Shown one piece after another: positions 23,743-63,712 of a stretch of 64,000 nt of DNA. The stretch is taken from contig CM120648.1 of NCBI GenBank assembly GCA_051362555.1, positions 15,868,587 to 15,932,586 on the forward strand. Direction: 5' to 3'. How positions within the stretch are numbered: the first letter of the stretch is position 1; the number at the start of each line of letters is the position of its first letter. Source of the DNA: Lingula anatina. Taxonomy: Eukaryota > Animalia > Brachiopoda. The position numbers and the translations under genes were made by a program. Below the pieces are notes generated by a model. That model was not told the origin of the DNA and ran no database searches. It saw only the letters and a list, made by a program, of their open reading frames with translations.

Positions 23743-26700
23743 CTAAGTCCTTTTTATTTTTGGAATTAAAATAAAAGTCATAAATGAACACAAAGACAGT
23801 CCAACAGAACCAAATACAAGGTATATTTTAGCGTCCAAACAGAGGCTGTTAGAAAGGGCGTAAATCACAGTCGATGAAAGGTAGTTGCTGGTTCTTGCTG
23901 CTGCAAATGCTGGCCATTTTTCGTCTGGAAACGTGTGCCCTATGAAAGCTGAAAAAATTAAATTTAAATAACCACAAACGTTGGAATAAATTTGGACATC
24001 ATACATGTAATTATGCAATTAACCAAATAAAAAGGGATAAGAATAGTAAAGTAGGCGTGAAAGGACTGTTACAAGTACGCCGAAAACTGTTATTTTAAAT
24101 AAGTTTATTACTTTTCACTATGTGGAATGACATAGAAAAGGATCACCAATTGAAAAATATTGCATTTAACATTTTTACCATGTCCACCATTAAGACAGAT
24201 ACATACCCATCGTTTGGGTCAGCCACACGGCGTCCGCTACACCCCAGGCCGCAGGGACAAAGAAGTGATACTCAATAATAATATCCGCTGGATCAAGTGC
24301 CAACATACTGGCCAGGCATGCGCAGTTGATGCAAGTGGCAAACACGCACATGGCTGGCAGACCGGTGAACTTGATGAGGCGACCAATCACAGCGTTTCCT
24401 ATGCTTCTTCCGGCCGAGTAGCATATCATGGACCACCCGTTGTAATTGACACCTATTACACAGCTCACAAATGCCTGAAAATATTGAAGGACATTACTAT
24501 GTATTAATTGGTATGAGCTGTCAATTAATCATGGGTTGAAGTATTTTTTTTTTGGTACTAAGATGTACACTGCATGGATTTTGTCACAGAACCAAAGTGT
24601 TAAATCATTGCACTCAATTAAATTCCACACACTACTCTACTTTATTTAGCCTACATTAAACCACCTTTAAATGTTGAAATCTAAGGCCCGTATTCCAGAA
24701 TCTCTCTTTAGCGTTAAGGGAGACCTAAAGTCGACCTTATACAAAATTTGTATTCCAAGACCTTTCTTTATCTCACTTGAAAGGAATCACTTAACAATCA
24801 TCCTTAGCAAAGGAATCGGTCATTTCTAGAATCTGCCTTTGCTTAAAGATTTCCTTTATTTTCGGCTCAGGATTCCATAAAAGGTAAGGTTGGTCTGGAG
24901 TAACTTTAAGTCTTCCTTAAGCAGCATTCGTGTACATTGCTCTTGTGAAAATCAGCTCCATGGAGGACTATTTAAACCAACATGCCTACCTTAATTCAAA
25001 ATCATTAAATTAAACTAGAAAAGCACTCCAACAGCAAAGTCTACACCCAATTTTCATTATATAATGATTTAGTTTTTTTTATTTTTGATTATTGATCCGG
25101 ATCACCACCAAAAACCAATAATCTGTTCCTTGGCCCACTTGTGACAGTTCCTGAACATTTCATCACAATCAGCACATAACATTTTGAGTTTTTTTAATTA
25201 ATGATACTTTATTGATTATTGATCTTGATCACCACCAAAAACTAATCACTTCTAATATAAGCCATTTCTGACCTACCCTAAAAATTTCATCAAAATTGGC
25301 CTGTAACTTTTTGAGTTATGTTGATGACAAACGAACAAACAAACAGACAGTCAGACAGACAAACAAACAGGGATGAAAACAACCTCCTTGGCGGAAGTAA
25401 TACATTTGAGCGAGGATAGGCTTTTCTCTGTTGACTAGTTGCATCAGTATAGCTGCTTTTTTTTTGATATTATAAAAGGGTCTACGACTTTGGTTTTCTC
25501 ATCCTCCAAACCATTCTTTTTTCTTCTTGCCATGCATACTTGCTTTATGCACTAAATTTAGCTTATATCAAAACATCCACATGCATTTATTATGTCCATA
25601 TGCGCTATTGCATGACTGTTGATCAGTTGACCCCAATTAATTTTCAATAAATAACATTACTGAGGCGTTTTAAACGAGGAGAGTGTCACAAAAGCCTACT
25701 CTAACGAATGAGGAGCTCCTTTATGTCAGTGTCCCTTACCTAAAGGCTGACTTTTGTCAAAGTAATTCCTCATCAAAGGAGAGGCTAAAGTGTGGTCTTA
25801 GAATACCATTTCGTTAGGCCTTGCTTTACCAAGGAACACCTCATCAAAGGAAGCCTTTATAAAAGTTGACCTTAGACTTATTTTAAGGAACATCTTGGAA
25901 TACGGGCCTAAGACTTTCAAATCCTGCGTAGCACCTTGGTAAACTCGGTGGCAATAAACTCTTGCCCCAAACCAGCCGTAACCAACAAAGGAACTATCAA
26001 CACAAGCTTCTTCTTCCACAGTAGATTCAGAACACTGTTGCAAAAATCTCTGGCACCATGAAGCGCGTCTCCGGACGTGGGGTGAATATTCTTAAGAAAC
26101 AAAAGAGTGACACAGCAGGCTATGCAGATGAGTCCGATGTACGACCCCAATAGGATATACACAATGTATTGTTCAGGTTCTCTAATGTGTGTACCAGTAA
26201 CGTCCTCCCAAGGACAAAAAGATGGCCCACACAACTCGCTCAAGTCCCCAAACTCCGATGACTCCGTCCTATTATCCATTTCATCGGTTGTGAGGACCAG
26301 AGATGAAATGAGGTTAGCCCATATAAAGTTGGTAGTGAATATCGTTGAAAACAGTCCGTTGAAGAACCCCATTACGTGGTGAAGCGGTTTTTTTGTGATT
26401 TTGGCGTAGTCTACTGCCAGTGCCGTGATGTAAACGTTACTGGTTATCATACCATTGGCAAAAACTGAAAATAGTCAACCAATAAACATACTCAGTTTAT
26501 TTATTTATGTATCTATACAAATTTGGCTACAATTTTGAACGAAGGTTTATATCAATACCCACTGTTTGAGATACAAGTTAGTCTTTGAACCACCCCGTAC
26601 GTATCAAATGTACAGGTCCACAATCAAAATCTTATAAGACACCGAAGGATATTAATACAACGGGAAGGTTCAAAATAACAACAAATAACGGTTGATCTTG

Positions 26701-27911: not shown

Positions 27912-29119
27912 GATCAAGTCCTAGTCACAAACCAAGGGTTGATTTAAATGGAAGCGTATTAGTTAGAACAGTGTTGTATGGAGCTACCTTCCCCAGCTAT
28001 GGCCATCACTGTTAATGACGTTGCATTTTTAACTGATAATAAAAGACGCTGTCTCTATCTTGAACAAGGACTCATGTGCCCTAGGTGCGTAAACTGTTGT
28101 GGCGCATTGAATGTTTAAGTCATGTTAACAACGTGAGATGGTAGGAAATTTCCCCGCCGACTTAACTTTGGATCCAAGAGCAGCAGTGTTTAAAGATCCC
28201 AATGTAGCAAACCAAAATAGATAATACTGTAATAATAATAATAATAATAATAATTATAATAATAATAATCTCAAAATTTCTGCGATTCTTTCTCTATTAT
28301 ATATGCATGTCCTCTTATAAAATCGCAGTCTATAAAACTAAATTTGGATGTCTATGTTTACCGTCTCAAATGACATCCCTCAAAATAAGAAAATAAGGAA
28401 TAAAAACGGTTTATGGATTGTGATTTTTAAAAATGTGTTTAGATAAATATGGCTCATCTTGCAGGTAAATGTTGAAATCTCAAGAACAATATGTCCACTG
28501 TGTATAGTTCCAGTGTTAATCATGTACCTTATAGAGGTAGTGTATGTCGGTGCTGTGGAACATCACGTGGCGATAACGCCTCCTTTTTTGTCTGATCTGA
28601 ACGTGAGCCGTGCAAGGTCTCCGTGAACTTTAGGGTCATCAGTTAAAGACACAGTCAGTCATCACGCCATATTACATCTGATATCGCTCGATTTGATAAG
28701 TTTTGGTGTTGACTTAATGAGATCAGTTACTCATTAACCTGTTTACTGCCAATACGTTTTAAGGGATACATTGAGCGCTTCACATGCCATTTATGCGTGA
28801 CAGAATATTTTCTTGTGCAGTACATTAACAAATAGAATAGCATGTTGTTATATATATATGTTTATTGCATCCCTTTTTCTGAATTGTTGAATTGTTTCTG
28901 TTCTGTTGATCAGAATGCCGAAGTCTACACGTCAGCATAGGAGAGTTTAATATACCACTATTTCCTCTGTCCTAGAGTAGATTCTATAATAATAATTTAT
29001 CTGTCCAGCGATATGCAATTCAACATTTACTTGTAGTTCAAATTTACATCACGGATAGTAGGGATGATTAACACTAAATGTGTTCAATTGTATTAAAGCT
29101 TCCGATATACCTTTTTATC

Positions 29120-29154
<35 letters not shown>

Positions 29155-29210
29155 TTTGCTTAAGTCAAGTTTTTTTTTAGGTCTTTACTTTTTATTACAA
29201 AAAATATGAC

Positions 29211-30101
29211 TCATTTTTTCAGAATACTCAGTGTGAATCTTCATAGATTTCTCATGCCGATGCATTCAAATGTCATGAATGTACTTAGTGACAGCCCTAA
29301 GAAACCGAAGGTGACGTAAATTGGTATCCATGCACCTCAAGTGGGAGATTGCGTACAGCACGCCGTATGTACCGTGTAGGCCTATGCGTACTGTCACAAA
29401 GGCGGGGCATTTCTCATCAGGAAACATGTGACCTATGTAAGCGGCAAGGAAAAATACATTAGAGTACAAATATGTGAAAAGACGTTATACAAATGTCACT
29501 GAAATATTTATATTTAGTTTTATTTGTGTACAATTTGCAGATTAAATAAGTCATTTAATAAGTCTGTTTTAATTTATATATGTTGTATATCGTCTCTGGA
29601 TTTTCTGGAGATTTCACAAAAGTCGAACAACGGATTTGGAAGTGATTGCACTGCTGTTTACAGGGTTTCACGTAAAGCTCTAAATTCCCTTTTTTATTTT
29701 TTTCTTTGCAAATTTACCAGAACCGCGGGATACTACTGTGGTTGTTTAGAGATTGGTTATTACTCTCAGAGGTGTTCAAGAATGTCAGCTGAATTTATTG
29801 TAGGTCGATCTTTTGTAAAGTGCTCTGAAACCAGTACCGCAAGCAAAGTCGCCTTCAAGTAATGGGCTATCCTGTTTAGCTGTCTCCGGTATTAGCTTAA
29901 TCTTTAAAATCTGGCATTCTGTGAAACTAGTCCTTTAAAAGAAAACGTGTTTACGAACCTGCCGATTGCGTCATCCAGACAGCATCAGCCAATCCCCAGG
30001 CTCCTGGCAACAAGAAATGATACCCGTCCCACATGACATCCGGGTCAAAGGTCACCATACTTATCAGACATGCGCTGTTGGTGCATACAGCGAAGACGTA
30101 C
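29211..30101 (-). pseudogene. UNC93A-like pseudogene fragment (last exon plus part of the preceding exon), duplicate of copy 7
   Basis: 29211-29441 matches the copy 7 last exon, with small frameshifting deletions and the acceptor changed from CAG to CCG. 29959-30101 matches 38082-38224 and then stops abruptly. Confidence 0.85.
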
Positions 30102-30499
30102 TGTAGGTCGATTTTTCGTTAAGTGGTGCTGGAGTTGAAATGATCCAAGTTCCAGGTGATGCAGACCTCCATATTTCATTTAAATAAAAAAAAAAAATAT
30201 CAGAAGCGCATATCATATGGTCATAATCTTCTGGGCCTTGTGCCGAAGCCATAATTGCTCCCAAGGTCATTTTTTGTGTTTGAAGTGAAACCTAGGTTAT
30301 CCATGGTGAAGGCAGTTAGGTACTGATTGACTGGTCAGTTATTTATAACTATAAGATTCAAATGGAATAAGTCATTGAATTAAAAAATGTAGGGACAGGA
30401 TGGCAATACATTTTAAATAGAAAATAACGGCGTTTACCTCAGGCAAGTTTATTTTGGTGCATGAATTGGATAAAGAGCACATTTTAGATCATTTGAAGT

Positions 30500-30544
<45 letters not shown>

Positions 30545-31230
30545 TCACGAAAATTAATACAAGACACTTACAACACAATAAGAGACAGAAACACCTTCCA
30601 CACACCATTCACACACTGCAAACGAAGTTCTTACAAATGTTGATTAAAAAAAATCATTTGAAGTGTTAATTTCCTGACCAATCTAGTACTACAACAAAAA
30701 AAGTGGTAAAAGACCATATATGTACTTTTGAGCTATTTCTTTTTTCTCTGTGAATTTGGTGACATTTGATGGCGTCTTTTCAATTTTATGACATTTCTTT
30801 ACATCTGAAGAAGTCACAGTGAAACAGTGGATTTGAGGGGGTACCTCTTATAAAGTTTACTAAATTGGTATAAAATGTGTATATTTTCACCACTATTTTG
30901 TATCTTTTTAACTATTAATCATGTTAGACACGGTATCTGTAATAAAAGGCACTATTTTTAACAATTTACAGCTGTGAGGTGATCATTTGTAAATAAAAGT
31001 ACATGGGAATGGGGGTGGGACAACCCTGTTGACCAATGTTGTAGATCTCTGTGCTGGCGGCCGTTTTTTTATTTTCCCCAAAAAATACCTGTTCCACTTC
31101 TTGGATTTTTCTAGATTTTTAATATGATCACATGGACCACTCAAAGACTCGGAAAAAAAAAAAAAAAAAAAAACATACTAAAATTTTTTTGCTATTAGTC
31201 CCGGGTTAAACCATTTTTTCTTAGACTACC
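30102..31230. mobile_element. Composite repeat-derived block at the duplication junction, including the right end of the Tc1-like family
   Basis: 30749-31043 is highly similar to 50592-50888 and ends in the TIR gggtgggacaaccctgttgaccaatgttg-TA. The rest is unclassified, with long T and A runs. Confidence 0.6.
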
Positions 31231-31346
31231 CCGCCGCCCCTTCCCTCCCAAACACACGATAACGTAATTAAACTTAATTAAATGCCCAGTACTTTACCCC
31301 CCTGCTATCTGTGTTTTTTGTTGAAAAAATATATACCAAGTCCTAC

Positions 31347-32581
31347 CTTTGTGAACTCAGTGACGATAAACTCTTGTTCAATTGCATGGCGTCTCCACTG
31401 GATGGGTGAACGTCTTGATAAAGAACAAAGTTATGAGAAAAGCCGTTCCGGACATTGCTAGAAAACACCCCAGGAGAATATACACTATGTACTGTTCAGG
31501 TTGTCGGATGTAGGTCCCGGATGTATCCTCCCACGGACAGAAAGCTGGTCCACATAGCTGGCTTAAATTCAGTGGGTTTGGAAGCCCTGTTCCGTTGAAA
31601 TAGTTCTCTACGGGTTTGCTTAGAATCAGCGATGAAACGAGGTTGCTCCAAACGGAGTCAAACGCAAACATGGCAAAGAATACTCCGTTACACATGCCCA
31701 TGACTGTGTTTTGCGATTTTTTAGTGATTTCTGAATACTGTAGGGCGAACGTGGTCACGAAAACACTACTGGTGATCATTGTCTGCGCATGCACTGAAAT
31801 CAAGGTTTCAAGCTCTTATAAATTCCATTCCATTTCTAAAAAATGAATAATTAAAAAAGTAAATAAATAAAACACAGTTTTTGCTATCAGTTAGTAAATA
31901 CCTTCGTTTACATTTTAAACCTGTCTTCATAATTAAAATTCAAGCGGGGCATTTCAAGGAAAATTATTTTTTGGATATGTATGTTTATGACTTAACGAGC
32001 ACGGAATGAGTTGAACTCTGGACAAGGAATGCTGTAAATACTCACATATGCCTACACAAAATGCAACTGGAATGATAATATAAGCTTTCACATAAAAGTG
32101 TACAACTATGAAGACCAACTGGCCAATCCAACCGAGTAAGATTGATCCTTTGGCACCCAATAACCGTCCAATGACAGGGGCTGTCACAAAAGAAAACACG
32201 GCGCCTCCGTAATTCCCCATCAAGGCATAATGTCCGATCTCAAGATTCAGAATCCTTTCTAAATTCAACAAAGCTGTGAAGGGAGAAAACCCAAGCATGT
32301 ATGTTATAGATAAGAATAACAGCTGAACCACCGGGGTTCGACTGGGCTGCCTGGCGCCCGATTGGGAGCCCAGCAACAAGGGCTGTGCCTCTAACTTTGC
32401 TTGCGGTACTGGCTTCAGAGCACTTTATGAAAAATCGACAAGGAATTGACAAAGAAATGCCAGAGAAACCATCCGACAATAATGCCTTCGTAGTGTGGCT
32501 CTCTCCAGATGATGCATCTGTTGATTCTTCTTCTTTTGCCGTTACTTCGCAAGACAGAATTGCCTCTACGGCGAGAGCAAT
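31347..32581 (-). pseudogene. UNC93A-like pseudogene (exons 1-2 only), related to copies 1-3
   Basis: Start codon changed from ATG to ATT (32581-32579). Exon 1 is 536 nt versus 487 (net +49, frameshift). Exon 2 (31793-31347) is 447 nt versus 536. Exons 3-4 are missing. Confidence 0.88.
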
Positions 32582-33160: not shown

Positions 33161-35739
33161 CTAAGTCCTTTTTACTTTTGGAATTAAAATAAAAGTCATA
33201 AATGAACACAAAGACAGTCCAACAGAACCAAATACAAGGTATATTTTAGCGTCCAAACAGAGGCTGTTAGAAAGGGCGTAAATCACAGTCGATGAAACGT
33301 AGTTGCTGGTTCTTGCTGTGGCAAATGCTGGCCATTTTTCGTCTGGAAACGTGTGCCCTATGAAAGCTGAAAAAATTAAATTTAAATAACCACAAACGTT
33401 GGAATAAATTTGGACATCATACATGTAATTATGCAATTAACCAAATAAAAAGGGATAAGAAGAGTAAAGTAGGCGTGAAAGGACTGTTACAAGTACGCCG
33501 AAAACTGTTATTTTAATTAAGTTAATTACTTTTCACTATGTGGAATGACATAGAAAAGGATCACCAATTGAAAAATCTTGCATTTAACATTTTTACCATG
33601 CCTACCATTAAGACAGATACATACCCATCGTTTGGGTCAGCCACACGGCGTCCGCTACACCCCAGGCCGCAGGGACAAAGAAGTGATACTCAATAATAAT
33701 ATCCGCTGGATCAAGTGCCAACATACTGGCCAGGCATGCGCAGTTGATGCAAGTGGCAAACACGTACATGGCTGGCCAACCGGTGAACTTGATGAGGCGA
33801 CCAATCACAGCGTTTCCTATGCTTCTTCCGGCCGAGTAGCATATCATGGACCACCCGTTGTAATTGACACCTATTACACAGCTCACAAATGCCTGAAAAT
33901 ATTGGAGGACATTACTATATATTAATTGGTAAGAGCTGCCAATTTATCATGAGTTGACGGACCTTTTTACTAAGATGTACACTGCATGAATTTTGTCACA
34001 GAACCAAAGCGTTAAATCGTTGCACTCAATAAAATTTCATACACTACTCTTCTTTATTTAGCCTACATTAAACCGCCTTTAAATGTTGAAATCTAAGACT
34101 TTCAAATCCTGAGTGGCACCTTGGTAAACTCGGTGGCAATAAACTCTTGCTCCACACCAACCGTAACCAACAAAGGCACTAGCAATACAAGCTTCCTCTT
34201 CCACAGTAGATTCAGAACACTGTTGCAAAAATCTTTGGCGCCATGAAGCGCGTCTCCGGACGTGGGGTGAATATTCTTAAGCAACAAAAGGGTGACACAG
34301 AAGGCTATGCTGATGAGTCCGATGTACGACCCCAGTAGGATATACACAATATATTGTTCAGGTTCTCTAATGTGTGTACCAGTGACGTCCTCCCAAGGAC
34401 AAAAAGATGGCCCACACAACTCGCTCAAGTTCCCAAACTCCGATGACTCCGTTCTATTATCCATTTCCTCGGTTGTGAGGACCAGAGATGAAATGAGATT
34501 AGCCCATATAAAGTTGGTTGTGAATATCGTTGAAAACAGCCCGTTGAAGAACCCCATTACGTGGTGAAGCGGTTCCTTTGTGATTTTGGCGTAGTCAACT
34601 GCCAGTGCCGTGATGTAAACGTTACTGGTTATCATACCATTGGCAAAAACTGAAAATAGTCCAACCAATAAACTTAGAATTTGTTTCAAAATATACATAT
34701 TTAATATGCATAAATTTACGGTAAATATGGCACAATATGATATATGCCGTCACAATAAAGAAAAATAAACCAATGCCAACTCATAATCATTAAAAGACAA
34801 GAAAATGATAAACAACAATATAGCCAAAAATATAAAGATAAATTGACCTACTATCTGCACAATTGTTCCGTACAGTGTCAGTTATCATTTTCAGTTTATT
34901 TATTTATGTATCTATACAAATTTGGCTACAATTTTGAACGAAGATTTTTAACAATACCCACTATTTAAGATACAAATTAGTCTTTGAACCATCCCGTACG
35001 TGTCAAATGTACAGGTCCACAGTCGAAATCTTATAAGACACCGACGGGTCTTAATACAACCGGAAGGTTCAAAATAACAACTCGCAAATAACAGATGATC
35101 TTGTTTTTCAGATAAAATATATTGATTTATTTCAGTTCTGGGAAAATCAATAAAATAATTTTCGTCTAAATAATATCGATTTCCTATTTCTTTTGATCAA
35201 ACAGGTGCACTGCAAATGTTGCCATTCAGAGAACACGAGTAGATTTATCTTTAAATAAATTCCACTTTCAAACTATCATTTTGCTCTGGAGTTCTTATGT
35301 GAGTCCTCCTTATCATACTATCATACTAGTCCAAGCCACAGAAACAGTTATACTTACATATACCGCATAGAAACGCCACGGGTAACAATATGTAAGGCTG
35401 AACGTAGAAATGGGCCGCAATGAATACTATCTGGCTCATTGATCCCAGCATCACTGATCTTTTGGCCCCGGCATAACGTGAAATAATTGGAGATGTCACT
35501 AAAGACAACATGCAGCCACTGAAATTACACATTAAACCGTATAGACCGATCTCCGGATTCAAGATCCCTTCTAAGTTAAGTATTGAGGCCATTGGAGCGT
35601 TCGAGAGCATGAAAACCACGGCGAGTATTATCAACTGAGAGACGGGTCCCCATTTTGAGGACTTCTTCTCGTTAGAAGCGAGTAGCAGTGACTTTTCGGA
35701 GTTTTCAGTCGAGGCTAGAGCATTTCCGAGCTTCCCCAT
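33161..35739 (-). CDS. unc93a: UNC-93-like protein A, copy 6; 4 exons, about 461 aa
   Basis: Exons 35739-35358, 34649-34120, 33892-33625 and 33366-33161. Exon lengths are identical to copy 4. Confidence 0.88.
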
Positions 35740-37362: not shown

Positions 37363-40300
37363 TCATTTTTCAGAGTACTCTGTGTGAATCTTCACTGATT
37401 TCTCATGCCGATGTAGGAGGTCAAATGTCATGAATGTAGTCAGTGACAGTCCTAAGAAACCGAAGGTGATGTAAATCTTGGTATCCATGCACATCAAGTG
37501 GGAGAGTGCGTACAGCACGCCGTACGTACCGTATAGGCCTATGCGTACTGTCACAAAGGCGGGCCATTTCTCATCAGGAAACATATGACCTATGTAAGCT
37601 GCAAGAAAAAATACATCGGAGTACAAATATGTGAAAAGACGTTATACAAATGTCACTAAATTATTTATATTTAGTTTTATTTGTGTACAATTTGCAGATT
37701 AAATAATTCATTTAAAAAGTCTGGCTTAATTTAAACTTGTTGTATGTCATCTCTAGAAGTTCTGGGGGTTTCACAAAAGTTGAACGACGGTTTTAGAAGT
37801 GATTGCACTGCTGTTTACAGGGTTTCATATAAAGTTCTAAATTCCCTTTTTAATTTTTTCTTGCAAATTTACCTGAACCGCGGGATACTACTGTGGTTGT
37901 TTAGAGATTGGTTATTACTCTCAAATGTGTTCAAGGATGTCAGCTAAATTTATTGTAGGTCCGCAAGCAAAGTCGCCTCAAGTAATGGGCTATCCTGTTT
38001 AGCTGTCTCCGGTATTAGCTTAATCTTAAAAATCTGGCATTCTGTGAAACTAGTCCTTTAAAAGAAAGCGTGTTTACGAACCTGCCGATTGCGTCATCCA
38101 GACAGCATCAGCCAATCCCCAGGCTCCTGGCAACAAGAAATGATACCCGTCCCACATGACATCCGGGTCAAAGGTCACCATACTTATCAGACATGCGCTG
38201 TTGGTGCATACAGCGAAGACGTACATGAATGGCCACCCCGTGTACTTGACCAATCGGCCTATCACTAGGTTACCTAGACACTGGCCTAACGAGAAGCATA
38301 TGATACTCCATCCATTGAAGTTAATTCCAAGTTCACAGCTGACGAAAGCCTGTAAAATGAAATTGAATTTCAGAGAGCAATTAATAAAAAAGACAAATAA
38401 TAAGCATTAAAAAGGGAATTTAATAAAGCAGTAAATTGGAAAAAATGTTTCTAGGGAAATGTACACAATGTTAACGTAGGTTCAATTCGCATAAGAGGTT
38501 TAGTTTTATACAACAACAAAGTACAAAATGTGAAATTAAACAATTTGACACTGTTTACATTGTATCACTGCTTTTTAATTTTTCAAAATTGGCATTTTAT
38601 ATTGAAAAAAGGTGAGGTGTTAAAAATAAATGTGCATAGTCAACGGTTACACCTGAAAGGAAAAAGGGACATTTCAAAAAGAAATAAAAGAAAAATAAAA
38701 ATAAATAAAATAAATAAACAGTCAAGGGCTCCTCAGAAGTGCGGGGGTTTCTAGCGCAAGCAAAAATACCTTTGTATATTCAGTCAGTAAAAGCTCCTGT
38801 TCAACTGCTATCATACCAAACACCGGAAGTAGCAATAGCATTTTCCGGTTCCATAGCAAACGGAGAATGGCGTTGCAGAAGTCTTTGGATCCGTGAGCTG
38901 AATCTTTCGATGTTGTTTTGATATTTTGCACAAATATGAGGGTTATACCGAACGCCAAAGTAACGAGACCAAGGAAGCAGCCTAGTAGGATATATACTAT
39001 GTATTGTTCTGGTTTTGTGATGTGGGTACCAGAGGTGTCCTCCCAGGGGCAGAAAGACGCTCCGCACAACTCGCTCAGGTTACCGTAGGCTTTCGTTCCG
39101 TTCCCGTTCGACTCCGGAGTGCTTAAAACGAGCGAGGAGATCAGGTTGCCCCAGATAGAGTTGGTGACGAAGATGGAAAAACCTTTGGGAATACAAAATA
39201 AAGTAAACATTAACTTTATAGTAATGCATTTCAGCCGAAAGAGTCTAATGTTAGGCTTGGGAGTGAAATAAGTATGGATAACGAGATAAAATGTCCCAAG
39301 AAGCATAATCTAGAAATATTATCGCGATAAACATGTCCAGTGTAAGTATTAAAATAAAAACTGATGTTAATGTTTTCATTTTTATTCCAATGCCAATTTC
39401 CAGTATTACCTAACCCGTTGAACATGCCCATAACCGACTCCGGGGCCTGCCCAGTGACGTCAGCATATTGGTATGCCAATGTTGTGACGTAGACACCGTG
39501 AGTGATGAACGTCTGTGCGTGGACTGGAATGAATGACAATTATTTTAAAGGTTTTTTTTCGATGAAAAGAGAACAATCACAAATCCTGAAACTTGATGTG
39601 CATCCACAACCAGTTGATTCGTGGACTTACAGATCGGCCATATTTGGTCCGAGGATCTGTGAGTCTGCGAATTAACTTTAGTTGTGAAGTGACCTTACTG
39701 CAGCAATGGATATATCACTCAAAAGGTCTTGAACAAATTTTTAGAAAATTAAATTGTTATTAAACTTAAGCAACCAGTCCAATCCAAAATCAATTAAACT
39801 AAATCCCAAACAAAGAATATCTTACCATGTTAATTCACCTATTCATTTGCCTAAAAATATTGATATTAAAACTTTTACATTTAATTACTACACTGTGATC
39901 TTAAGTTGAAAGTATTTGTTTTCATGACCAGTGGATAGACTTTTTGTAAATATGGACTTATTTACCAGCTGTACACTTACGTATTCCCACAATAAATGAT
40001 ATTGGTATTAAAACATACGGAATCACATAGAAGTGTGCAGCGATGAATAATCCCTGGCCAAAGAATCCTAAAAGCAGCGACCCTTTAGCACCAACCAGAC
40101 GCGTTAAAATCGGCGACGTCAAGGAGGAGAGAACCGCCCCGCCAAAATTACCCATCAGCGCAAACAAACCGATTTCTGGGTTAAGTATGGCTTCCAGATT
40201 CAGCAATTAAGAGAGCGGGGAGAACCCAAGCATCATGGCGACAGCAATAATGACGTTTTGGGAGAGAGGAAACCATTTCGTGTGCTTCTCTTTGGGTTGG

Positions 40301-40365
40301 TCTTGAGACAACAAAAGTTTCCTTTCAGAGGCGTCGTAAGGGAGATGTCCGTTTTCACTTTTCAT
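37363..40365 (-). pseudogene. unc93a: UNC-93-like copy 7: 5 exons, in-frame TAA at codon 53 (recent pseudogene, null allele or sequence error)
   Basis: Exons 40365-39981, 39523-39410, 39182-38770, 38349-38082 and 37598-37363. Exon 1 reads ...MLGFSPLS*LLNLEAILNPEIG (TAA at 40209-40207). The rest of the 471-codon frame and all splice sites are intact. Confidence 0.8.
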
Positions 40366-42041: not shown

Positions 42042-45000
42042 ATGGAGCTCAGCCGCTCCGGGCCCGTTCCCGAAAGTATTCCCGAGGAGAAACGACTGCT
42101 CCTTGGCTCCAACAGCGCCAAGCCTCGTCGCAGCAGATGGGGTCCCGTTCGACAGCTTCTGGTGTTATCTGCTGTTTATATGCTAGGATACTCACCACTT
42201 ACAGCTTTAATGAACTTAGAAGGGATACTTAATCCCGATATAGGATTATACGCGCTGTTGGTGCATTATGGAGGGGCGCTGGTTTCGTTTTTCACTGCTC
42301 CGATCTTGGCACGGATTTTTGGCGCCAAGGGATCGGTCTTGTTGGGGTTGTTTGGCCAGGGTTTGTTCATTGCCGTCCATTTCTATGTGGAGGTGTATTT
42401 GTTGCTGCCCGTGTCTTTCCTCGTAGGCATAAGTAAGTATAGATGAACATAAGACGTCAAACGTTATATTGCGTAAAATGTCACTTGTCAAGAACGGGAT
42501 AGTATAATTGCTTATATTTAAATTTCTGTTACCCCTACCCATGAGTTTTACATAGAGACAGACATATCTGATTGCATTTTAATTGTTAATGTGGGTTTTG
42601 TGTATGCGTGTGTATTTGATAAAATATGGCAGGCAAAATACGGTCCCCAGCCTTGTTGGGATGAAGAGACTAAATTGTATCGCTATTACCCTGGCACCAA
42701 AGACCTACTGCACCCAACTAACCCCCTCCCCCCCCCCCCCCCCCCCAGTCTTCAGCACTTCTATTATGGGTCAGCATGTCCTTTGATGGCGTACATGTCA
42801 CAGATATAATGTGGCTCTCCTAGTTAAATAGTAACTGGCGAAGAACAATGACTGCTCCGTATAGTACATTAGCACTCAACCGATATAGCAGTGTCACTGT
42901 ATCGATAGATCGTTCCACTTTATACACTCAGCGTGCAGTGCAAATGATATAAAAGACCCCTTCTCTTCGTTATCGGCAATCGAGAGAACGTCTGGTTAAT
43001 ACACGTGACATAGGTGGATGTGAGATATCACGTCACCCCCACCTCCCCCACAAGAGAGACCTGTTTGATAAAACTAAAGAATTTGGGGCACTTTGCAGCA
43101 ATCAGTACATGTACGCGGAACATACTTTGCGCGTGGCACTGCCTCAACATATCAATACCCCCTCTTTACTGCTGTGCCTGGAACCTTTCATGGGAGGGGA
43201 CAACACGTGGGACGTGTGCTTGTACATGTATCCCCCCTCCTTTTAACGTCGGCGGTGTCACCATCGTCGCCTCCTTTGTTCAAGAAAATAAATAAATAAA
43301 AGACGACGAAACGTACCCAGCAATTTTGATCCCTGAACATGGCGCCTGGCACTTGGTAGTAGAATTGCTCCCGTCTGTTATTATTTTATTATTATTATAA
43401 TTATTGGCAAGGCGAATACCGGGTATTTTGGTCCTCGTGACCCCCCCTCCCCTTCCGCAACCTCATGAATCTGGATCGTTTCACATGCGTTTCAGTGTAC
43501 TTCCTAAACTGTGTGTAAGTTTGTTTTTCCTTTTTTTTGCCCTTAAATTATAACTTAATGATTAATTTCAGCGCATGCACAGATGTGGATCAGCAACGGG
43601 GTGTACGTTACAACTTTAGGCTTGGAATATTCGGAGATCACGGGTCAACCTCAGGACTCCGTTATGGGTGTCTTCCAAGGCGTTTTCTTTAGCATTTTTA
43701 CCACGTGTGGAGTCTGGAGCAATTTGGTGTCATCATTAGTTCTAATAAAACCTGTAGACAGAACAGTAAACGGATCCACGGTAGTCCCGCAAATAGGAAA
43801 TCTAAGCGATTTGTGTGGGCCTGCTTTTTGCCCGTGGGAAGATACCTCCGGGACATACATAGAGCAACCGGATCAGACTTTAGTGTATATAATACTTGGA
43901 GCGTTTCTTGGGTTTATTTTGGTTGCCTTTACGGGGTGCCTTTTGCTCCTTCGGAATATCCATGCCAACACAGGGGACGCTTTAAATGGAGCTGGTGATT
44001 TTTGTTCGGCCACGATAAAGTTGCTGTGGAGTGGACGCATGCTTCTTATGATTCCTGTCGTGGCATATATTTCTGTTGAACAGGAACTCATTCAAACAGA
44101 ATTCACCAAGGTAGGCATTTCTGAATTAATGTGTGCAACATAGAGTCTGTTTTTCAAAGACTAAAAAAGCATTTAACGGGTGCTAGTAGTTAAAATTTAA
44201 CTCTGTCATGTGGATTTAATAAACCTTAACAAATTATTTTATCATAGCAATAGAATGCAACTAAATTCAAGTTGATGTTCGAAACTTACTTGTAAAAATA
44301 TTTGATCCAGAAAAGAATGCCATTGCAATGCATTAAAAATAACACTAGTAGTTTCGTTTACCACCTTACGTGTTCGTAAAATGTATCCTGGTAGCCATTG
44401 CTTCTCACATTTCTCACAACCATAAGGCCTTCATCAGGGAATGAGAGACATACATATGTTGACCATATCCAGGTGCACTATTTTAATTTTATTACATATC
44501 TAAGTAACAACGCAGATGGTTACTTTGATTACGTATTCCAGGCGTTTGTAAGCTGTGAGATCGGCATCCAGTACAACGGCTGGTCTATGATCTGTTACGC
44601 CAGCGGTCAAATCATTGGATCCACAGTGACTGGGCGATTGTTGAAGTACACGGGTTGGCCGATAATGTACGTCTTCGCCACGGCTGCCAACGCCTCCTGC
44701 TTAGCCAGCATGTTACTGCTGGATTCTTCCTCCAAAACCATGCTGTTTTACTTTCTGGTGCCCTTTGTCTGGGGGCTGGCCGATTCCGTGTGGCTGACGC
44801 AATCTTCAGGTAAGAAAGGCCGCCATGTTACGCTTGGTGCTGTGACGTCATATTAAGTCACCTAATAGTCTTTTAATATGACGTCATATTCCCTGAAGGT
44901 AAATTTTCCTACACGACGTCCTATGGGACACCAAAGGAAACTTACAGGACTCCAGTACGATAAATTAATGCTGGGGAGTGCAGTCTTGAGTTAGATGTAT

Positions 45001-46271: not shown

Positions 46272-47125
46272 AAAGATAACCAAGTACTGCCCTCGCTCGA
46301 AATCATTATGTGCAACTGCTGCAATTAACTGTCACAATCTGCGAGTGAATGCAAATAACAGTTTCAATTTTCAATATTAATGACCCATTTCTTAAAGAAA
46401 GTCGCCTACCGACAACTAAATTATAAAATAAGGAAATCGAATTTGCTCATTTTGACCAAAGGTCTTAGAAAAAAAAACGTGCGAACTTGCGGGATATGCG
46501 GCGTGAATGGAATCAGAAATAAGGACAGAGGTCCAAGTGAGGTAAAGAATTAAAGCTGGCAGAATGAATTCATAGATATTTTTTTTCTATTTGTTTTCCC
46601 TTACGTTTGTCAATTGGCAATTACTTTCGCAACAATACGAATCAACCATATGTTGGGTGCCTTTTAAATTTTCTATTTCTTCCTAGGAAGATATTCTGAC
46701 GTTTCCTATGTATTTATGAGACGTACGTAACTCAAAAATTATGTGCTTTCCAACATATTATTTATTTTATTGTTACAACTTAATGACTACATGGTGATCT
46801 TTCTCCTTGTCTTGTCATCCATTGGAAATGTATATACATGTACACTGTACAAGAACCATCTGGAATGTAGTCAATAAATAACATGAAAAAATATAACACT
46901 GTGGTATTACCTTACTCGTGTAGAGATAAAGTCAACAACTTTGTCACAAAACCGCTAACTATCAAGACAGTGGAACCTTTGGACCGTATACATAGTCCAT
47001 ATACATAAGTAAATATACAAGTGATATTTTAAGTCATAAAATGATTCAACTTCATTTACCTTTTGGCACGTCGCCAACCGGTGGTTAATAAATAACAAAA
47101 GGTTGTGTTGCGTTAATATACAAAT

Positions 47126-48800
47126 AACTATACTGCAACTGTCTAAAGCCAGTGGCGGAGGATTCCCCTGCTAAATAGGCGTGGAAATGCTCTTACAAGG
47201 TCATGTGAAGGTCATGGGTTAAATTTGACGCCATATCCTGAAAGAGCATGCATATATGTGCGAATTGGGGGGGGGGGGGTGTTAACAAAACATCACTTTT
47301 AGCCCACTTCAATATTTCTCCATGAAATAGCCAAATGACCTTGAAAATGAGGGTCAAGGTCGAATTTGACATTTGCTTTGGGGGTATTGGGTATATGTTT
47401 GGGGTAGTTTACTATACCATGTTATCACAAAAAATCAATATTTCATGGAAAAATTGACAAAGTCACTATTTATGTGAAATTATTAATATTAAAAAATCTA
47501 TTTTAAAAAATCTAATCAGTCAATTGTCAATATTATTAGCGACTGCACTGGACTGCAACTTCTTACATCATCCTTGTGGCACTGTGACATCTGGTTTACC
47601 CCCTGCCGAGTGTCAACTACTTGGAGCATATCAGGGAATATGTTGACCTTGACCTGACCTACTTTCCTTAAATTGGGTCACATGATAAAGAATCATTGTT
47701 TGAACTCAGCTATGAAAGAGTCAAAATGTTAAAAATTCTACGAGATATTGAATTTTGAAATGTGCCAAATTTTCACTTTAAAAGGCTCTGTGACCTTGAA
47801 AATTAGGTCAAGGTCAAAAACATTGGGTGGACCGGAATAACTTTTCATAGGCTATCAGTGTGATTTTTTTTCAGAATTTAAGAAAGAAATTTTTTGACGA
47901 AAAATAAGAAGAAGAACTAGACTGCAACTGGATAAAGCCAGTGGCGGAGGATTCCCCTGCAAAATAGGTGTGGAAATGCTCCTACAAGGTCATGGGTTTA
48001 ATTTGACCCCGTATTCTGAAAGAGCATGCGCGAATTGGGCGGGGGGTCAACAAAACATCACTTTTAAACCACTTCAATATTTCTCAATGAAATAGCCAAA
48101 TGACCTTGAAAATGCGGGTCAAGGTCAAATTTGACATATGAGTTGGGGGTGTTGGGTATATGTTTGGGGTAGTTTACTATAGCATGTTATCACAAAAAAT
48201 CTATATTTCATGGAGAAATTGACAAAGTCACTATTTCTGTGAAATTATTAATATTTAAAAATCTATATTAAAAAATCTAATCAGTCAATTGTCAATATTA
48301 TTAAATACTGCACTGGATAGATATCTAGGGCAACTTTTTACATCATCTTTGTGGCTATGTGACATCTGGTTTACCCCCTGCCGAATGCCAACCTTTGAAA
48401 GCATATAGTGCAATAAGTTGACCTTGACCTGACCTACTTATCCTAAAATTAAGTCACATGATACAGAATTATTGTGTCACCTTACCTTTGAAAGGATTTG
48501 TCAAAATGTTGAAAATTCTAGGAGATATTGCATTTTGAAATTTGCAAAATTTTCACTTTAAAAGGCTCTGTGACCTTGAAAATTAGGTCAAGGTAAAAAA
48601 AATTGGGTGGACCGGAATATGTTTTCATAGGCTATCAGTATGAATTTTTTTCAGAATTTTAAAAAGAATTTTTTTGACGAAAAATAATAATAAGAAGAAG
48701 AATAAGAACAGGAAAAACAATAGTAATCCCCTATGGGGAATCCTAATAAGATTAATAACAGGAAAAACAATAGTATTCCCCTATGGGGAATCCTAATAAT
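47126..48800 (+). mobile_element. Helentron/HINE-like element made of two tandem units of about 789 bp
   Basis: Units start at 47126 and 47915 (aacta.actgcaactg..taaagccagtggcggaggattcccc) and contain internal tgaccttga...tcaaggtca palindromes. An (AAT/AAG)n tract precedes a doubled 3' hairpin tcccc-tat-gggga, whose ggggaatcc is inverted to the left-end ggattcccc. Confidence 0.65.
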
Positions 48801-49654: not shown

Positions 49655-50886
49655 CATTGGTCAAAAAGGTTGTCCCACCCACATTTCCAGAGTGTGGCGG
49701 AATTGGTCAAGATTATTTGGGAATTGGTTCTCCTCTGCAATGCACATTCCAATTCATGCCACAGGTACTCAGTAGGATTAATATCAGGGCTCAAAGACGG
49801 TTGTCCCATCCTTATAGCCCTGTGTTTCTGTAACAAATCACTTGCCACACGAGAGCAAGTGCGTTGTCACAATGAATCCAGTAGCATCCCTGAAGTCACC
49901 TCTTACAAATGGAGTGAGATTTCTGTTGAGAATCTTACAGTAAAATGCTCCTGTTACGTTTTGTTCTAAAAGGAACAATGTACAAATACCATGGGCTTGG
50001 AATGTCCTCCAAATGAGGACTGATCTAATTCCTCAGGCGATATTATCCTACACACACACTTTTTAACATGCCTATGGACCCTCTTTGACCGTCGATGGGA
50101 TACAAGAAATAATTTGATTCTGCATCAAAACCGACTTCCTTTCAGTGATGGATGGCCAGGTTCAGGTGCCTGTGGGATCACTGAACGAAGCATTCTCAGC
50201 TGATATCTCAGTCCATCTTCAAGAACTGACTTTCGGGTTAACTCCAGGCTTTATCATGATTGCACACTTGCTCACACCTCTCGCCTGACAAGTGTTTGTT
50301 GAAGAAACACAATGCTCTAAGTATGGGATCACCATATTTGAGCCCTGATATTAATCTTATGATCAACTGTGACATGAATTGGAGTGTGCAAAGCAAAGGG
50401 GAACCAACCCCATAAAAACGTGGACCAACTCACCCAACTCGTTTAAGAATAATGGGACAATATCCCACAAAAAAGAATTGTTACCCATGTTGAAGGCTTG
50501 TCGCACTGTCTACAGGTGATAATTGCAGTACGCGGTAGACGCACACGCTGTTAGGCACGTGATCTTTAACGAGCTCACCCTAATGCTAATTTGTGTGAAT
50601 TTGGTGACATTTGATGGCGTCTTTTCAATTTAAAAAACACTTCTTTACGTCTGTAGAAGTCACAGTGAAATAGTGGATTTGAGGGGGTACCTCTTAAAAA
50701 CTTTACTAAATGGTATTAATTATATATATTTTCACCACTATTTTGTACTTTTTTAACCAATAATCATGTTAAATACGGTATCTGTAATAAAAAGCACTAT
50801 TTCTAACAATTTACAGCTGTGAGGTGATCATTTGTAAATAAAAGTACATGAAAATGGGGTTGGGACAACCTTTTTGGCCAGTTTTG
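49632..50886. mobile_element. Degenerate, rearranged Tc1-like element
   Basis: TIRs aacattggtcaaaaaggttgtcccaccc and gggttgggacaacctttttggccagttttg, with TA flanks. The - strand encodes SPDINPTEYLWHELE, a decayed form of the Tc1 motif SPDLNPIENLW. Confidence 0.8.
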
Positions 50887-50904
50887 TATATCAAGTATCA
50901 AACT

Positions 50905-52090
50905 TTACTGATACGGTTCAAATCTTATTGGTCTATAGCGTCGTCTGCTAGCAGACTGAAATCCGGGACCGTCGTCACTTCCGGAATGATAAGTATGGGC
51001 GATTGCGCTTCGTGACCCGTCGTCTTCACGGTTTCTAACCTTAGTGGAATGTTTTAGCGTCAGGAGTTGTTCCTTGGCATGTTTTAGCTTTTGGATCTCT
51101 AAATGAAGGTCGTAGTTGTCATCCGTCAGCTGGGCAATGGTTTTCCGCAAAACAGAATTTTCGGCCGCTGTCATCGACATTTTGTTAAACAGGTCAAGCG
51201 ATTCGTGCCGGGTCCTCTCCAGCTCAGTGGATTTATTTTCAAAACGCTTGTAAACACCGTTCCTCTCAGTGTTTAGCAGTTGAATTTCGTCACGCATTTG
51301 GTCGATTTCTTTATTGGTCTCGGCAAGTTGTGAAGAAATGGCAGTGACCTGCTCTCGTAGACGCTGGTTTTCCTCATGTATCAACCTGTAGTCGGAGTGC
51401 ACCCTGGTGTCCAGATTGTAATCACGAATCTGAGCTTCCATCTCCATCTCGAGTTCTCGGCTTCTTTCACGTGCTCGCCGGGAAATCTCTCGTTCTGCCC
51501 CGAGTGCTTGTTCTAAATCATTCTCGCGGTGCTCGCGTGCTTCGTGGACTCTCATGCTGCGTTTCAACTGTTCAATTTCGTCTTCCAGGCTTTGGATTTT
51601 AAGAGTGAGCTGATGTATACTGTTTTCTGTAATCACATGGTTTTGATAGCTCAAAATTCTTGACCGTTGAAAAAGCTCTTCCCTTTTTGCTTGTGACACT
51701 GCAAACCAAACGTTGCATTGAAAGCAAAACCTAGATTGTACGACATGGGTAAATATCTAGACAAAGACAACATCTGAATATTAACGACGCCTTACTTATA
51801 ACTCTAATTTAAAACTGTCCCAGCAAAAAATAAGAATGGTGGCAATATTCACTTGGATTGCCTCATTCCCTGAAGAAAATGTTCTTAATAGGCATCAAAA
51901 TATTGAAAGTAAATACAATTGCAATATTAGCTGTTGATTGAGGAAATCCACTTCCGATAATAATAATGATACTTTTATTGGGATATTCACCTGGCCTACG
52001 TCTGAAACCACTGTCCGGAGCATTTGACGTCATTGTTTCTTCAGACATATGACTAATTCCACCAAATTCGTCTGCACCTCCGGTCGCCAT
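50905..52090 (-). CDS. Uncharacterised two-exon coiled-coil protein, about 297 aa
   Basis: Exon 1 is 52090-51991 (MATGGADEF...RRRP, donor CAG|GTGAAT). Exon 2 is 51698-50905 (acceptor TTTGCAG). Phases match (1). The body is E/R/L/Q-rich with heptad character and no stop codon. Confidence 0.7.
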
Positions 52091-61900: not shown

Positions 61901-62638
61901 AAACAGGGAACATAACAGTATAAAGCACTTTATATGAAGCAATTTGTCAGCAGCCGATTTTATGCACAGTAGCATGTGCGGTTTAGCTTAGAGTCAGATA
62001 ATTTTAAACGTTCCTTTATAAAATATGGATATCCAGTGATATAAATACAACACAATATCCCATATTTTCTAAACCTTGCCAACTTACCTTCTATCCGTAC
62101 AGCAGTGTAGAAGTTTGTTCTGTGAAACACGTAGCCGGTGACTATATGCATAATCTATTGTGCTTGTTACAGAGATGCATTAGATAAGATGATCTTTTTT
62201 AAAAAACAACTTGTCCCCATTTGCTCTGATGTGCGCGGGGATATATACAAATGCTTGTCAAGGGGAATCCCCTCATTCTACATAAAGTCTATAATTACAT
62301 TACATTCTTGAGTACTGTAAGGTCTTGTACGTTTAGGGGGTCAAAGATGACGCATGTTTTTTTTTTTACCCTTAAATCTTTCACAGGAGGAACTGATCTG
62401 CCGTATCGGAATAAGTGTAAGTTGACAAAAGTTATGAATACATAAGATATTGTTGTATCAATTGATATTGAAGATTTGTCACGATTCACCTGTGTAAGTG
62501 TTGATATTTATGATGCATTTAAAGTAAGAACTAATGTCAAATATTTAACACTAAACTCAAAATAGTATCTCAAATAGTATAACTTAAATACATGGTCACA
62601 CTGGGGTTAATACAGAAAAGTTTTATTTCCATAACCAG

Positions 62639-63712
62639 TTGGTACCAGTAGCAACAAGCTACCTATACCTTGGTCTCCTTTTCACAAGATCCGGCTCGCT
62701 AGCCCCTGCACAGCAAAATTTACATGACAGAGCACAAAAGGCCTTTTTCAGTCTCAAGCGCAATCTTCCTCTAGCTAGTACCATTCCCATCTCCTTAAAA
62801 GAAAAGCTGATTTCCCCAGTTGCAACATATGGAGCAGAAATATGGGGGTTCACTCCATTTAATGATAAATCACCAATAGAAAAAATACATCTTCAGTTTT
62901 GCAAGCAGCTTCTAGGGGTACATTCTAAGTCTTGGAATTATGCTGTCCGAGGAGAACTTGGGCGCCTACCAAGCTACACAAAAATCCAAATACAAGTTAT
63001 CAAATACTGGGTCAAAATTTTACACTTAGATGATGGTGTTCTACTAAAACGGGCATACTTAGATGAACTAAAACACTTTGATCTTTTGTCATATACTAAC
63101 CTTCACAACACACGCCATAGTATGTCATGGAGTGCAGGAGTAAAGAAAATTCTTGTAGAAAATGGGTTCGGAGACGTATGGGTCAAACAGAAAGTAGACA
63201 AAAACTTCATGAAAATTTTTAGTGTTAGACTTAGAGACAGTAGTATACAACTTTGGCATAGTAGGATATCACAAGAAAATCTCAAATTGAGAAGGTATAA
63301 AACCTTCAAACTTCATTTTGAGAAAGAAAAATATCTTGATATAATACAAGATAAAGAAAAACGTCAAACCCTAACCAAATTCAGAATCAGCAGCCGCAAT
63401 TTGCACACAGAAACAGGTCGCCACGTAAAGCGTAAGCCAACACCAGTCGAAGACAGAACATGCCAAATCTGCCACTCTGGAGTTATAGAGGATGAAGAGC
63501 ACTTTTTAATTACCTGCCCTCTGTATACAGAACACAGAAAAGAACTCTTTAAAATAATACAAAGCAGCCACACGTGCTTTGCACATTTAAACAACAAAGA
63601 TAAATTCCACTTTATAATGTGCAATCCAAACGAAACAGTGATAATTTCCTTGGCCAAATTCCTTAATCTTGCTTTTAACAAAAGAAACTGTGCTACATCC
63701 TCAACTTCCTGA
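62639..63712 (+). mobile_element. 5'-truncated non-LTR retrotransposon ORF2 C-terminus (RTE-X-like)
   Basis: Motifs YLYLG (end of the RT region), YGAEIWG, AVRGELGR, FRISS...ETGR and the zinc knuckle CQIC...EDEEHFLITCP. No YADD catalytic core is present. Confidence 0.85.

What the first reader, a model, noticed from the sequence alone, without database searches (positions are those of the whole stretch)
39183..39409. Paralog-specific extra intron with AG|GT at both junctions and subterminal inverted repeats (introner-like gain)
Seen: only copy 7 has a 227-nt phase-1 intron splitting exon 2. Removing it gives MFNGLGFSIF, which aligns without gaps to MFNGMFYAIF and VFQGVFFSIF in the paralogs. 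Both junctions read AG|GT (TTAG|GTAATA; CCAAAG|GTTTT), i.e. a 4-bp direct repeat. Imperfect inverted repeats lie near the ends: ggaatacaaaataaagtaaacattaac (39188-39214) versus the reverse complement of 39366-39388, ggaataaaaatgaaaacattaac. Known: introner transposons create introns by co-opting TSD and TIR sequence as splice sites. Inference: a transposon-derived intron gain, with intron-less paralogs as internal controls.
Basis: partly seen in the sequence, partly recalled or inferred. Interest (0 to 1): 0.8.

Follow-up and report, generated by a model that had tools for sequence, protein, structure and literature searches.

The report
One gained intron, no transposon family
One copy of a duplicated membrane-protein gene in the brachiopod Lingula carries an extra 227-base stretch with intron ends that its sister copies lack; it is likely a spliced intron born from a one-off DNA insertion that probably also changed a conserved amino acid, and no family of close copies was found that would make it transposon-born.

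Summary
Copy 7 of a Lingula UNC-93A-like array has a 227-nt phase-1 GT..AG insert at 39183-39409. All 7 other copies lack it, as do 13 of 13 outgroup loci found independently of the site, and copy 7 is nested in the tree, so it is a gain. It is present in 3 of 3 informative DNA runs, with no intron-less allele. Splicing is inferred (exact frame restoration; 10 of 13 exon variants synonymous); four RNA runs gave no exon reads, and this haplotype has a premature stop. The 4-bp repeat is uninformative: 4 of 21 old introns match as well. The inverted repeat is real (p about 0.002-0.06) but lies 21 and 5 nt from the ends and weakens with alleles from other haplotypes. At 80% identity the insert is near single-copy, while a repeat 200 bp away shows roughly tenfold depth. 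A published survey lists 0 introner families in L. anatina. New point: the split codon is Gly where 104 of 116 homologues have Phe and none Gly. Best reading: an imprecise repair-type insertion that rewrote the codon. An extinct MITE is not excluded.

The parts
39183..39409 (-). 227-nt phase-1 GT..AG insert, found only in copy 7 (inferred spliceosomal intron); acceptor ends in AAG whereas the 21 other introns of the array end in CAG
   Evidence: present in DNA runs X2, X6, X9
39181..39410 (-). Split Gly codon 167 (first base at 39410, second and third at 39182-39181), replacing a family-wide Phe
   Evidence: Phe in 104 of 116 other sequences, Gly in 0 of 116; only deviation to an unseen residue among 46 conserved columns
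39366..39388 (.). Donor-side arm of the imperfect inverted repeat (intron nt 22-44)
39188..39214 (.). Acceptor-side arm of the inverted repeat; overlaps the U-rich tract before the acceptor; two positions (39196, 39206) differ in other haplotypes
39348..39361 (.). Second, local inverted partner of the donor-side arm (12 of 14); lies inside a 24-nt deletion (39341-39364) carried by one X2 haplotype and by X6
39410..39523 (-). Copy 7 exon 2a
38770..39182 (-). Copy 7 exon 2b; 6 of 9 listed variants synonymous
39981..40365 (-). Copy 7 exon 1, with an in-frame TAA at 40207-40209 (codon 53) in this haplotype
38082..38349 (-). Copy 7 exon 3
37363..37598 (-). Copy 7 exon 4
39599..39690 (.). Dispersed hairpin repeat inside copy 7 intron 1; serves as positive control for detecting multi-copy DNA
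   Evidence: bin depth 965/550/146/324 in X2/X6/X8/X9 with many loose ends; 24-nt arms, 83% complementary
34120..34649 (-). Uninterrupted exon 2 of copy 6 (sister lineage of copy 7, with copy 4 at 25935-26464)
43572..44110 (+). Uninterrupted exon 2 of copy 8 (also uninterrupted at the site: copy 1 12735-13270, copy 2 17465-18000, copy 3 21584-22119, and copy 5)

Best explanation
The 227-nt insert is found only in copy 7 of the Lingula UNC-93A-like array and is likely a spliced intron, probably gained once when about 229-230 nt of unrelated AT-rich DNA were patched into a T-rich Phe codon during imprecise break repair. Shown: it has GT..AG ends that restore frame and length exactly; it is absent from all other copies and outgroup loci; it is near single-copy; the codon it splits is a unique Gly. 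Inferred: the insert replaced two or three T's and left one G in each flanking exon, which made both the Gly codon and the AG|GT look of the two junctions. Only an insert that happened to bring in-frame splice sites could survive in a gene under purifying selection. On this view the 4-bp repeat is a by-product, not a target-site duplication, and the inverted repeat is A/T-tract complementarity or a worn relic of whatever DNA was captured. The event predates the split of haplotypes that now differ by 5-10%.
For: Gain: absent in 7 of 7 window paralogs; copy 7 is sister to copies 4/6 with support 99/97, so loss needs at least two events against one gain; 13 of 13 intron-bearing outgroup loci found only through a downstream motif and reaching the site run through it uninterrupted. 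Link to the codon: Phe 104 of 116, Gly 0 of 116; the only never-seen residue among 46 conserved columns of copy 7, and copies 1, 3, 6, 8 have none; a randomly placed intron would hit that codon about 1 time in 471. Function: 10 of 13 listed variants in the unduplicated exon parts are synonymous against 23.7% expected, P = 8e-5; the second X2 haplotype has 14 substitutions and 32 gap letters across the insert, while the exon 2b contig has 9 substitutions in 470 nt and no gaps. No family: depth over the insert 70-90, 44-50, 39-47 against 31-101, 41-49, 6-67 in the bins from 38678 to 39525 in X2, X6, X9, while the repeat in intron 1 reaches 965, 550, 324. No similarity to flanking exons or introns (p 0.43-0.92) or elsewhere in the window. 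Precedent: Daphnia neointrons whose insert ends extend the neighbouring exon and alter codons (PMC4202315 section 24).
Against: No spliced read was seen, and the window haplotype has a stop at codon 53 whose state in other haplotypes was not displayed. No intron-less copy 7 allele exists in the data, so the order of Gly and intron is not shown; Gly may have come first and created the AG|GT site. The inverted repeat does beat shuffles in the window haplotype. A small depth excess in the bin with the donor-side arm (X6 50 against 44; X2 90 against about 75-80 expected from contig overlap) could be one short outside match whose row was not displayed. The source DNA is unidentified, so 'repair capture' rests partly on absence.
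Confidence: 0.58

Rival explanations
1. Relic of an old, extinct MITE-like insertion that became the intron. In its most coherent form the element began at the last exon base, carried the donor in its left terminal repeat, took the acceptor from the target side, and later grew about 21 nt at its left end by slippage.
For: Inverted repeat score 27 against at most 15 in 21 other introns, p 0.0003-0.06. A 7-of-8 match links the donor junction to the acceptor-side arm, and the first 27 intron bases hold three short TGG-led units (sequence). Arms about 20% apart imply that family members could lie below the 80% threshold. Introner-like elements are reported to degenerate until indistinguishable (abstract start of PMC3609843).
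Against: No family seen. Two right-arm alleles shared by the second X2 haplotype, X6 and the most distant run X9 lower the score to 19 (p 0.10 or 0.035), the opposite of what decay from a perfect repeat predicts; left-arm rows were not displayed, so this test is one-sided. Each arm has a closer local partner and the RNA folds no better than shuffles, z = -0.94. A 3-nt target duplication would match at 1 of 3 bases. It needs the Phe-to-Gly change to come first.
Confidence: 0.24
2. Member of an active or recent introner family with a 4-bp AGGT target-site duplication.
For: AG|GT at both junctions; transposon insertion into AGGT is a described route (passages of PMC3443670); aquatic species are enriched for introners (passages of PMC9860276).
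Against: Near single-copy at 80% identity in three runs. With AGGT as the duplication the element's own ends are not inverted repeats. 4 of 21 ancient introns of the array have junction repeats of 4-5 nt and 7 more have 3 nt. No presence/absence polymorphism. 0 introner families listed for L. anatina GCF_001039355.2 (supplement file 7 of PMC12130899).
Confidence: 0.04
3. An unspliced insertion in a dead gene: copy 7 is a pseudogene and the GT..AG ends are coincidence.
For: TAA at codon 53 in this haplotype; no copy 7 protein among 428 longer or 21 near-length candidates.
Against: Exact restoration of frame and length by canonical ends; synonymous excess in exons downstream of the insert (P = 8e-5); indels inside the insert but none in the exon 2b contigs of X2 and X9; proteins of copies 3, 4 and 6 were not returned either, so absence from the protein set is not specific.
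Confidence: 0.07
4. An ancestral intron kept (or slid) in copy 7 and lost in the other copies.
For: Some outgroup loci have a phase-1 break in the same helix, 21 nt downstream (8 of the 16 loci printed).
Against: No outgroup locus has it at this codon; copy 7 is nested; 21 nt is far for sliding (own knowledge) and no Lingula copy has the downstream intron; the atypical AAG acceptor and unique Gly fit a new site.
Confidence: 0.04
5. Tandem duplication of an exon segment around AGGT.
For: AG|GT at both ends; described route (passages of PMC3443670).
Against: No similarity of the insert to exon 2a or 2b (p 0.49 and 0.92); GC 0.30 like the other introns.
Confidence: 0.03

Closest known systems
Newly gained introns of Daphnia pulex attributed to double-strand-break repair (PMC4202315; passages and section 24 read)
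   Same: AT-rich single insert of unknown source; junction repeat of 4 nt is at the low end of their 4-12 bp range; cases where insert ends extend the exon and change the protein.
   Different: Those are polymorphic and cDNA-verified; this one is present in all haplotypes seen, sits in one paralog, has no read support, and swaps one residue without changing length.
Introners (PMC9860276, PMC12130899; passages and supplement rows read)
   Same: Length within their range (family medians 30-654 nt); lower GC than exons; aquatic host; an inverted repeat near both ends.
   Different: Introners are defined as families of similar introns (5 to over 2000 copies in the 2022 paper) whose similarity reaches the splice sites; here one copy, arms 21 and 5 nt inside, no locus-specific target duplication; L. 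anatina listed with 0 families.
Intron gain at AGGT proto-splice sites by transposon insertion or tandem duplication (PMC3443670; passages read)
   Same: AG|GT on both sides, coding length unchanged.
   Different: The AGGT exists only because of a Gly codon unique to copy 7; no transposon family and no exon-like content.
UNC-93A-like membrane proteins of Lingula anatina (RefSeq names)
   Same: Copies 1, 2 and 8 match RefSeq proteins at 94-100% per exon; an outgroup locus (L008) has three introns at corresponding places.
   Different: Copy 7 has a fourth intron, Gly167 and, in this haplotype, a premature stop; no annotated protein for it was found.

Membership tests
Introner / introner-like element | Several similar introns or copies elsewhere in the genome | tested here: not met
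   Depth over the insert near flank level at 80% identity in X2, X6, X9, with a positive control 200 bp away; none in the window. Blind to copies under 80% identity; table rows were truncated.
Introner / introner-like element | Shared sequence reaching to within about 10 intronic bases of both splice sites | tested here: inconclusive
   No second copy to compare; the self inverted repeat begins 21 nt inside the donor and 5 nt inside the acceptor; criterion from PMC9860276.
Introner / introner-like element | Target-site duplication with at least one locus-specific base | tested here: inconclusive
   Repeat is 2+2 nt, all splice-consensus letters; 4 of 21 old introns have 4-5 nt. PMC9860276 calls such cases ambiguous.
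MITE (non-autonomous TIR transposon) | Terminal inverted repeats | tested here: inconclusive
   22 of 27 columns, p 0.0003-0.06; falls to p 0.035-0.10 with alleles of other haplotypes; not terminal; competing local partners.
MITE (non-autonomous TIR transposon) | High copy number and a cognate autonomous element | tested here: not met
   Copy number test as above; the autonomous partner could not be sought because no genome is held.
Spliceosomal (U2) intron | GT..AG ends, pyrimidine tract, frame restored on removal | tested here: met
Spliceosomal (U2) intron | Removed from the mRNA | tested here: inconclusive
   0 exon reads in 4 RNA runs, no expressed control laid; indirect support from synonymous excess.
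Lineage-specific intron gain | Absent from paralogs and outgroups, bearer nested in the tree | tested here: met
   7 of 7 paralogs, 13 of 13 independently found outgroup loci; tree. Gene structures of four unlinked Lingula paralogs were not available.
Repair-derived intron gain (Daphnia type) | Intron-less ancestral allele showing the pre-insertion junction | not testable with these tools
   No intron-less copy 7 allele in the runs laid; no relative's genome held.

The most novel reading that the evidence does not exclude
The insert is the last recognisable member of an extinct MITE-type introner family in brachiopods: its left terminal repeat supplied the donor and one exonic G, the event rewrote a deeply conserved Phe to Gly, and diverged sister introns are still findable in unrelated Lingula genes by a profile search. 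That would add brachiopods to the few animal groups with transposon-made introns.
Probability: 0.12. Interest if true: 0.6.

Novelty: new member of a known kind. Interest (0 to 1): 0.3.

Why it matters
As it stands it is a tidy single example: an intron gain with intron-less paralogs beside it, where the gain coincides with the only radical change at a conserved residue in the whole protein. That suggests redundant gene copies tolerate imprecise gains that an essential gene would not. It does not open the question of intron origin by itself, because the source DNA is unknown and splicing is unshown. It would matter more if a diverged family turned up, since introners are reported in few animal groups and the surveyed L. 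anatina assembly is listed with none.

Tried and rejected
No whole genome is held for this window, so a genome-wide BLASTN could not be run; DNA contigs laid at 80% were the substitute. No RNA holder was listed. Four RNA runs gave 0, 0, 0 and 2 reads, the two on the intron 1 repeat; only 6-25% of each run was read and no expressed control was laid, so this is no test. Run X8 covered 9 of 30 bins and not the insert: no test. No copy 7 protein among longer or near-length candidates. No match of the insert in phage records, in Rfam above gathering scores or in earlier findings of this scan. A degenerate arm pattern matched only the acceptor-side arm in the window. Pfam gave no hit on the four single-exon pieces tried; the UNC-93 name rests on RefSeq names and precomputed PF05978 of whole proteins. 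Synonymous sites between copy 7 and copies 3, 4, 6, 8 are saturated (pS above 0.81), so paralog distance cannot date the gain. The partial duplicate of copy 7 at 28138-30101 lacks exon 2 and gives no information. Nine listed variants in exon 4 and the duplicated half of exon 3 were dropped from the selection count because they may come from that duplicate; with them it is 16 of 22 synonymous. Outgroup loci that match the search pattern spanning the site were not counted because they are uninterrupted by construction; 13 loci remained, one of them (L033) judged by a continuous tblastn match, and several are near relatives of each other. That copy 6 intron 2 is also 227 nt is coincidence: no similarity. 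Literature searches listed no paper on this locus or on introners in Lingula; only the top 10-25 titles of each were seen.

Full report
Setting. The window holds a tandem array of UNC-93A-like genes: seven on the minus strand and one on the plus strand. Copies 1, 2 and 8 match RefSeq proteins of Lingula anatina at 94-100% per exon, so the window is from that species or a close form. The seven complete copies share three introns; an outgroup locus (L008) has breaks at corresponding places.

Observation. The insert is as described: 39183-39409, 227 nt, GC 0.30, GT..AG, phase 1. Of five frame-keeping, stop-free donor/acceptor pairs nearby, only this one keeps the protein length, and retention meets a stop. 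The junction repeat is exactly AG|GT, 2+2 nt. The inverted repeat matches at 22 of 27 columns with arms 21 nt inside the donor and 5 nt inside the acceptor. It beats dinucleotide shuffles at p = 0.0003-0.006 with BLAST-like scoring and 0.002-0.058 with lenient scoring; the other 21 introns score at most 15 against 27.

Gain or loss. All 7 other window copies are uninterrupted at the site. A maximum-likelihood tree of 20 proteins places copy 7 as sister to copies 4/6 (99/97) inside a Lingula clade whose base is unresolved. Loss would need at least two events, gain one. A metagenome scan returned 79 loci. One search pattern spans the site and biases towards uninterrupted loci, so I counted only intron-bearing loci that lack that pattern and reach the site: 13 of 13 run through it. 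The organisms are unnamed and some loci are near relatives. Eight of 16 printed loci have a phase-1 break 21 nt further on, a different site that no Lingula copy has. Gene structures of four unlinked Lingula paralogs were not available.

The split codon. The codon cut by the insert is Gly. In an alignment of 117 family members the column is Phe in 104 of the 116 others and Gly in none. Among 46 columns conserved at 75% or more, this is the only place where copy 7 has a residue seen nowhere else; copies 1, 3, 6 and 8 have no such place. The AG|GT context exists only because of this Gly. Substitution and intron are therefore very probably linked. Either the insert replaced two or three T's and left a G in each exon (one event), or two substitutions first made Gly and a proto-splice site that was then hit (three events). 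I favour the first; no intron-less allele was available to decide.

Is it spliced? Not shown. Four RNA runs gave no read on any copy 7 exon, with 6-25% of each run read and no control gene, so this is no test. This haplotype also has a TAA at codon 53; its state elsewhere was among the rows not displayed. Indirect evidence favours function until recently. Of the 40 differences displayed (287 hidden), 13 fall in unduplicated exon parts and 10 are synonymous, against 23.7% expected (P = 8e-5). The insert itself takes indels: the second X2 haplotype has 14 substitutions and 32 gap letters across it, including a 24-nt deletion shared with X6, while the exon 2b contigs of X2 and X9 have no gaps.

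Age and polymorphism. X6 spans the whole insert in one contig, X9 bridges each junction, and X2 shows two haplotypes, both with the insert, in overlapping contigs. No joint skips it. X9 differs from the window by 25 of 462 nt around exon 2b and 52 of 508 around the insert, so the gain is older than that split. Contigs drop rare variants, so a rare intron-less allele is not excluded.

Transposon tests. (a) Copies: at 80% identity the depth over the insert is 70-90 in X2, 44-50 in X6 and 39-47 in X9, close to the neighbouring bins. The bin 39632-39737 in intron 1 reaches 965, 550 and 324 with many loose ends, which shows that the method sees dispersed repeats. A small excess in bin 39314-39419 in X2 and X6 may be one short outside match; its row was not displayed. 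Copies under 80% identity would be missed. (b) Target duplication: 4 of 21 ancient introns of the array have junction repeats of 4-5 nt and 7 have 3 nt; PMC9860276 treats repeats made only of splice-consensus letters as ambiguous (passages). (c) Terminal repeats: with AGGT as the duplication the element's own ends are not inverted. Two right-arm positions (39196, 39206) carry other alleles in the second X2 haplotype, X6 and X9; with them the score falls from 27 to 19 (p 0.10 for ends shuffled, 0.035 for whole). As X9 is the most distant run, these are probably the older alleles, which is the wrong direction for decaying terminal repeats. Left-arm rows were hidden, so the test is one-sided. In the folded RNA both arms pair with local neighbours, and the fold is no better than shuffles (z = -0.94). 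(d) Literature: L. anatina GCF_001039355.2 was in the 2022 survey (supplement row; file cut when stored) and is listed with 0 introner families in the 2025 survey (supplement file 7 of PMC12130899; 12 of 14 files searched). Those pipelines need annotated introns and several copies, and copy 7 may be unannotated there.

Other sources. No similarity to the flanking exons or introns (p 0.43-0.92), to the rest of the window, to phage records or to Rfam families above threshold.

Mechanism. Most likely (0.58) a break in the T-rich codons of copy 7 exon 2 was repaired with about 229-230 nt of unrelated AT-rich DNA and loss of two or three bases. The patch carried a usable donor one base in and a U-rich tract with an AAG acceptor near its end; all 21 other introns end in CAG. 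Splicing then restored the length and left Gly for Phe, tolerated in a redundant copy. Daphnia neointrons show such exon-extending inserts (PMC4202315, section 24 read; other passages). The main rival (0.24) is a worn MITE of an extinct family. An active introner family (0.04), an unspliced insert in a dead gene (0.07), ancestral retention (0.04) and tandem duplication (0.03) are unlikely.

Papers seen. Passages only: PMC9860276, PMC12130899, PMC3443670, PMC11282704, PMC13121700 (the word intron does not occur in its main text). Supplement rows. One full section: PMC4202315. Search listings showed nothing on this locus. Repeat annotations and expression tables deposited outside the library could not be seen and bear on both copy number and expression.

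Verdict. A real, paralog-specific, fixed-looking intron gain with an unusual codon signature; not a demonstrated introner. New member of a known kind; interest 0.3.

Noticed in passing
window 39599-39690: Dispersed multi-copy hairpin repeat in copy 7 intron 1 (24-nt arms, 83% complementary; depth about tenfold over background and shared loose-end sequence in four runs); looks like part of a MITE-like family.
   Followed up: partly
window 40207-40209: In-frame TAA at codon 53 of copy 7; the rest of the frame is intact, so this may be a recent null allele.
   Followed up: partly
window 28138-32424: Chimeric copy 5: exons 1-2 resemble copy 3 (frame breaks near 31400, as in RefSeq protein P0007) and are followed by a duplicate of half of exon 3, exon 4 and the downstream spacer of copy 7 (87% over 2 kb), with frame-breaking deletions in exon 4. 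Fits unequal crossing-over that also made copies 4 and 6.
   Followed up: partly
window 29934-30076 versus 38082-38224: 143 nt of exon 3 are identical between copy 7 and its broken duplicate while exon 4 differs at many sites; possible gene conversion or assembly collapse.
   Followed up: no
window 18001-18237: Copy 2 intron 1 is 237 nt, a multiple of three and free of stops in frame, giving one 449-codon open frame over exon 1, intron 1 and exon 2; RefSeq P0004 splices it. May be chance.
   Followed up: no
L021, L025, L027-L030, L032, L059: Outgroup UNC-93A loci with a phase-1 break 21 nt downstream of the copy 7 site, absent from other outgroup loci and from Lingula.
   Followed up: partly
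window 37961-37978: Insertion polymorphism in copy 7 last intron: X6 has 48 other letters here, X9 34 extra letters.
   Followed up: no
window 30749-31047 and 50594-50892: A 300-nt element present twice at 89% identity, one copy at the junction of the chimeric copy 5.
   Followed up: no
window 2-685 (+), 62588-63709 (+), 50908-51756 (-): Long open frames outside the array. The first two look, from recall only, like a transposase piece and the C-terminal part of a LINE protein; neither hit Pfam at 0.01. The third is coiled-coil-like with weak hits only.
   Followed up: partly
window 3683-4388 and 47123-48696: Tandem repeats with units of about 158 nt and about 790 nt.
   Followed up: no
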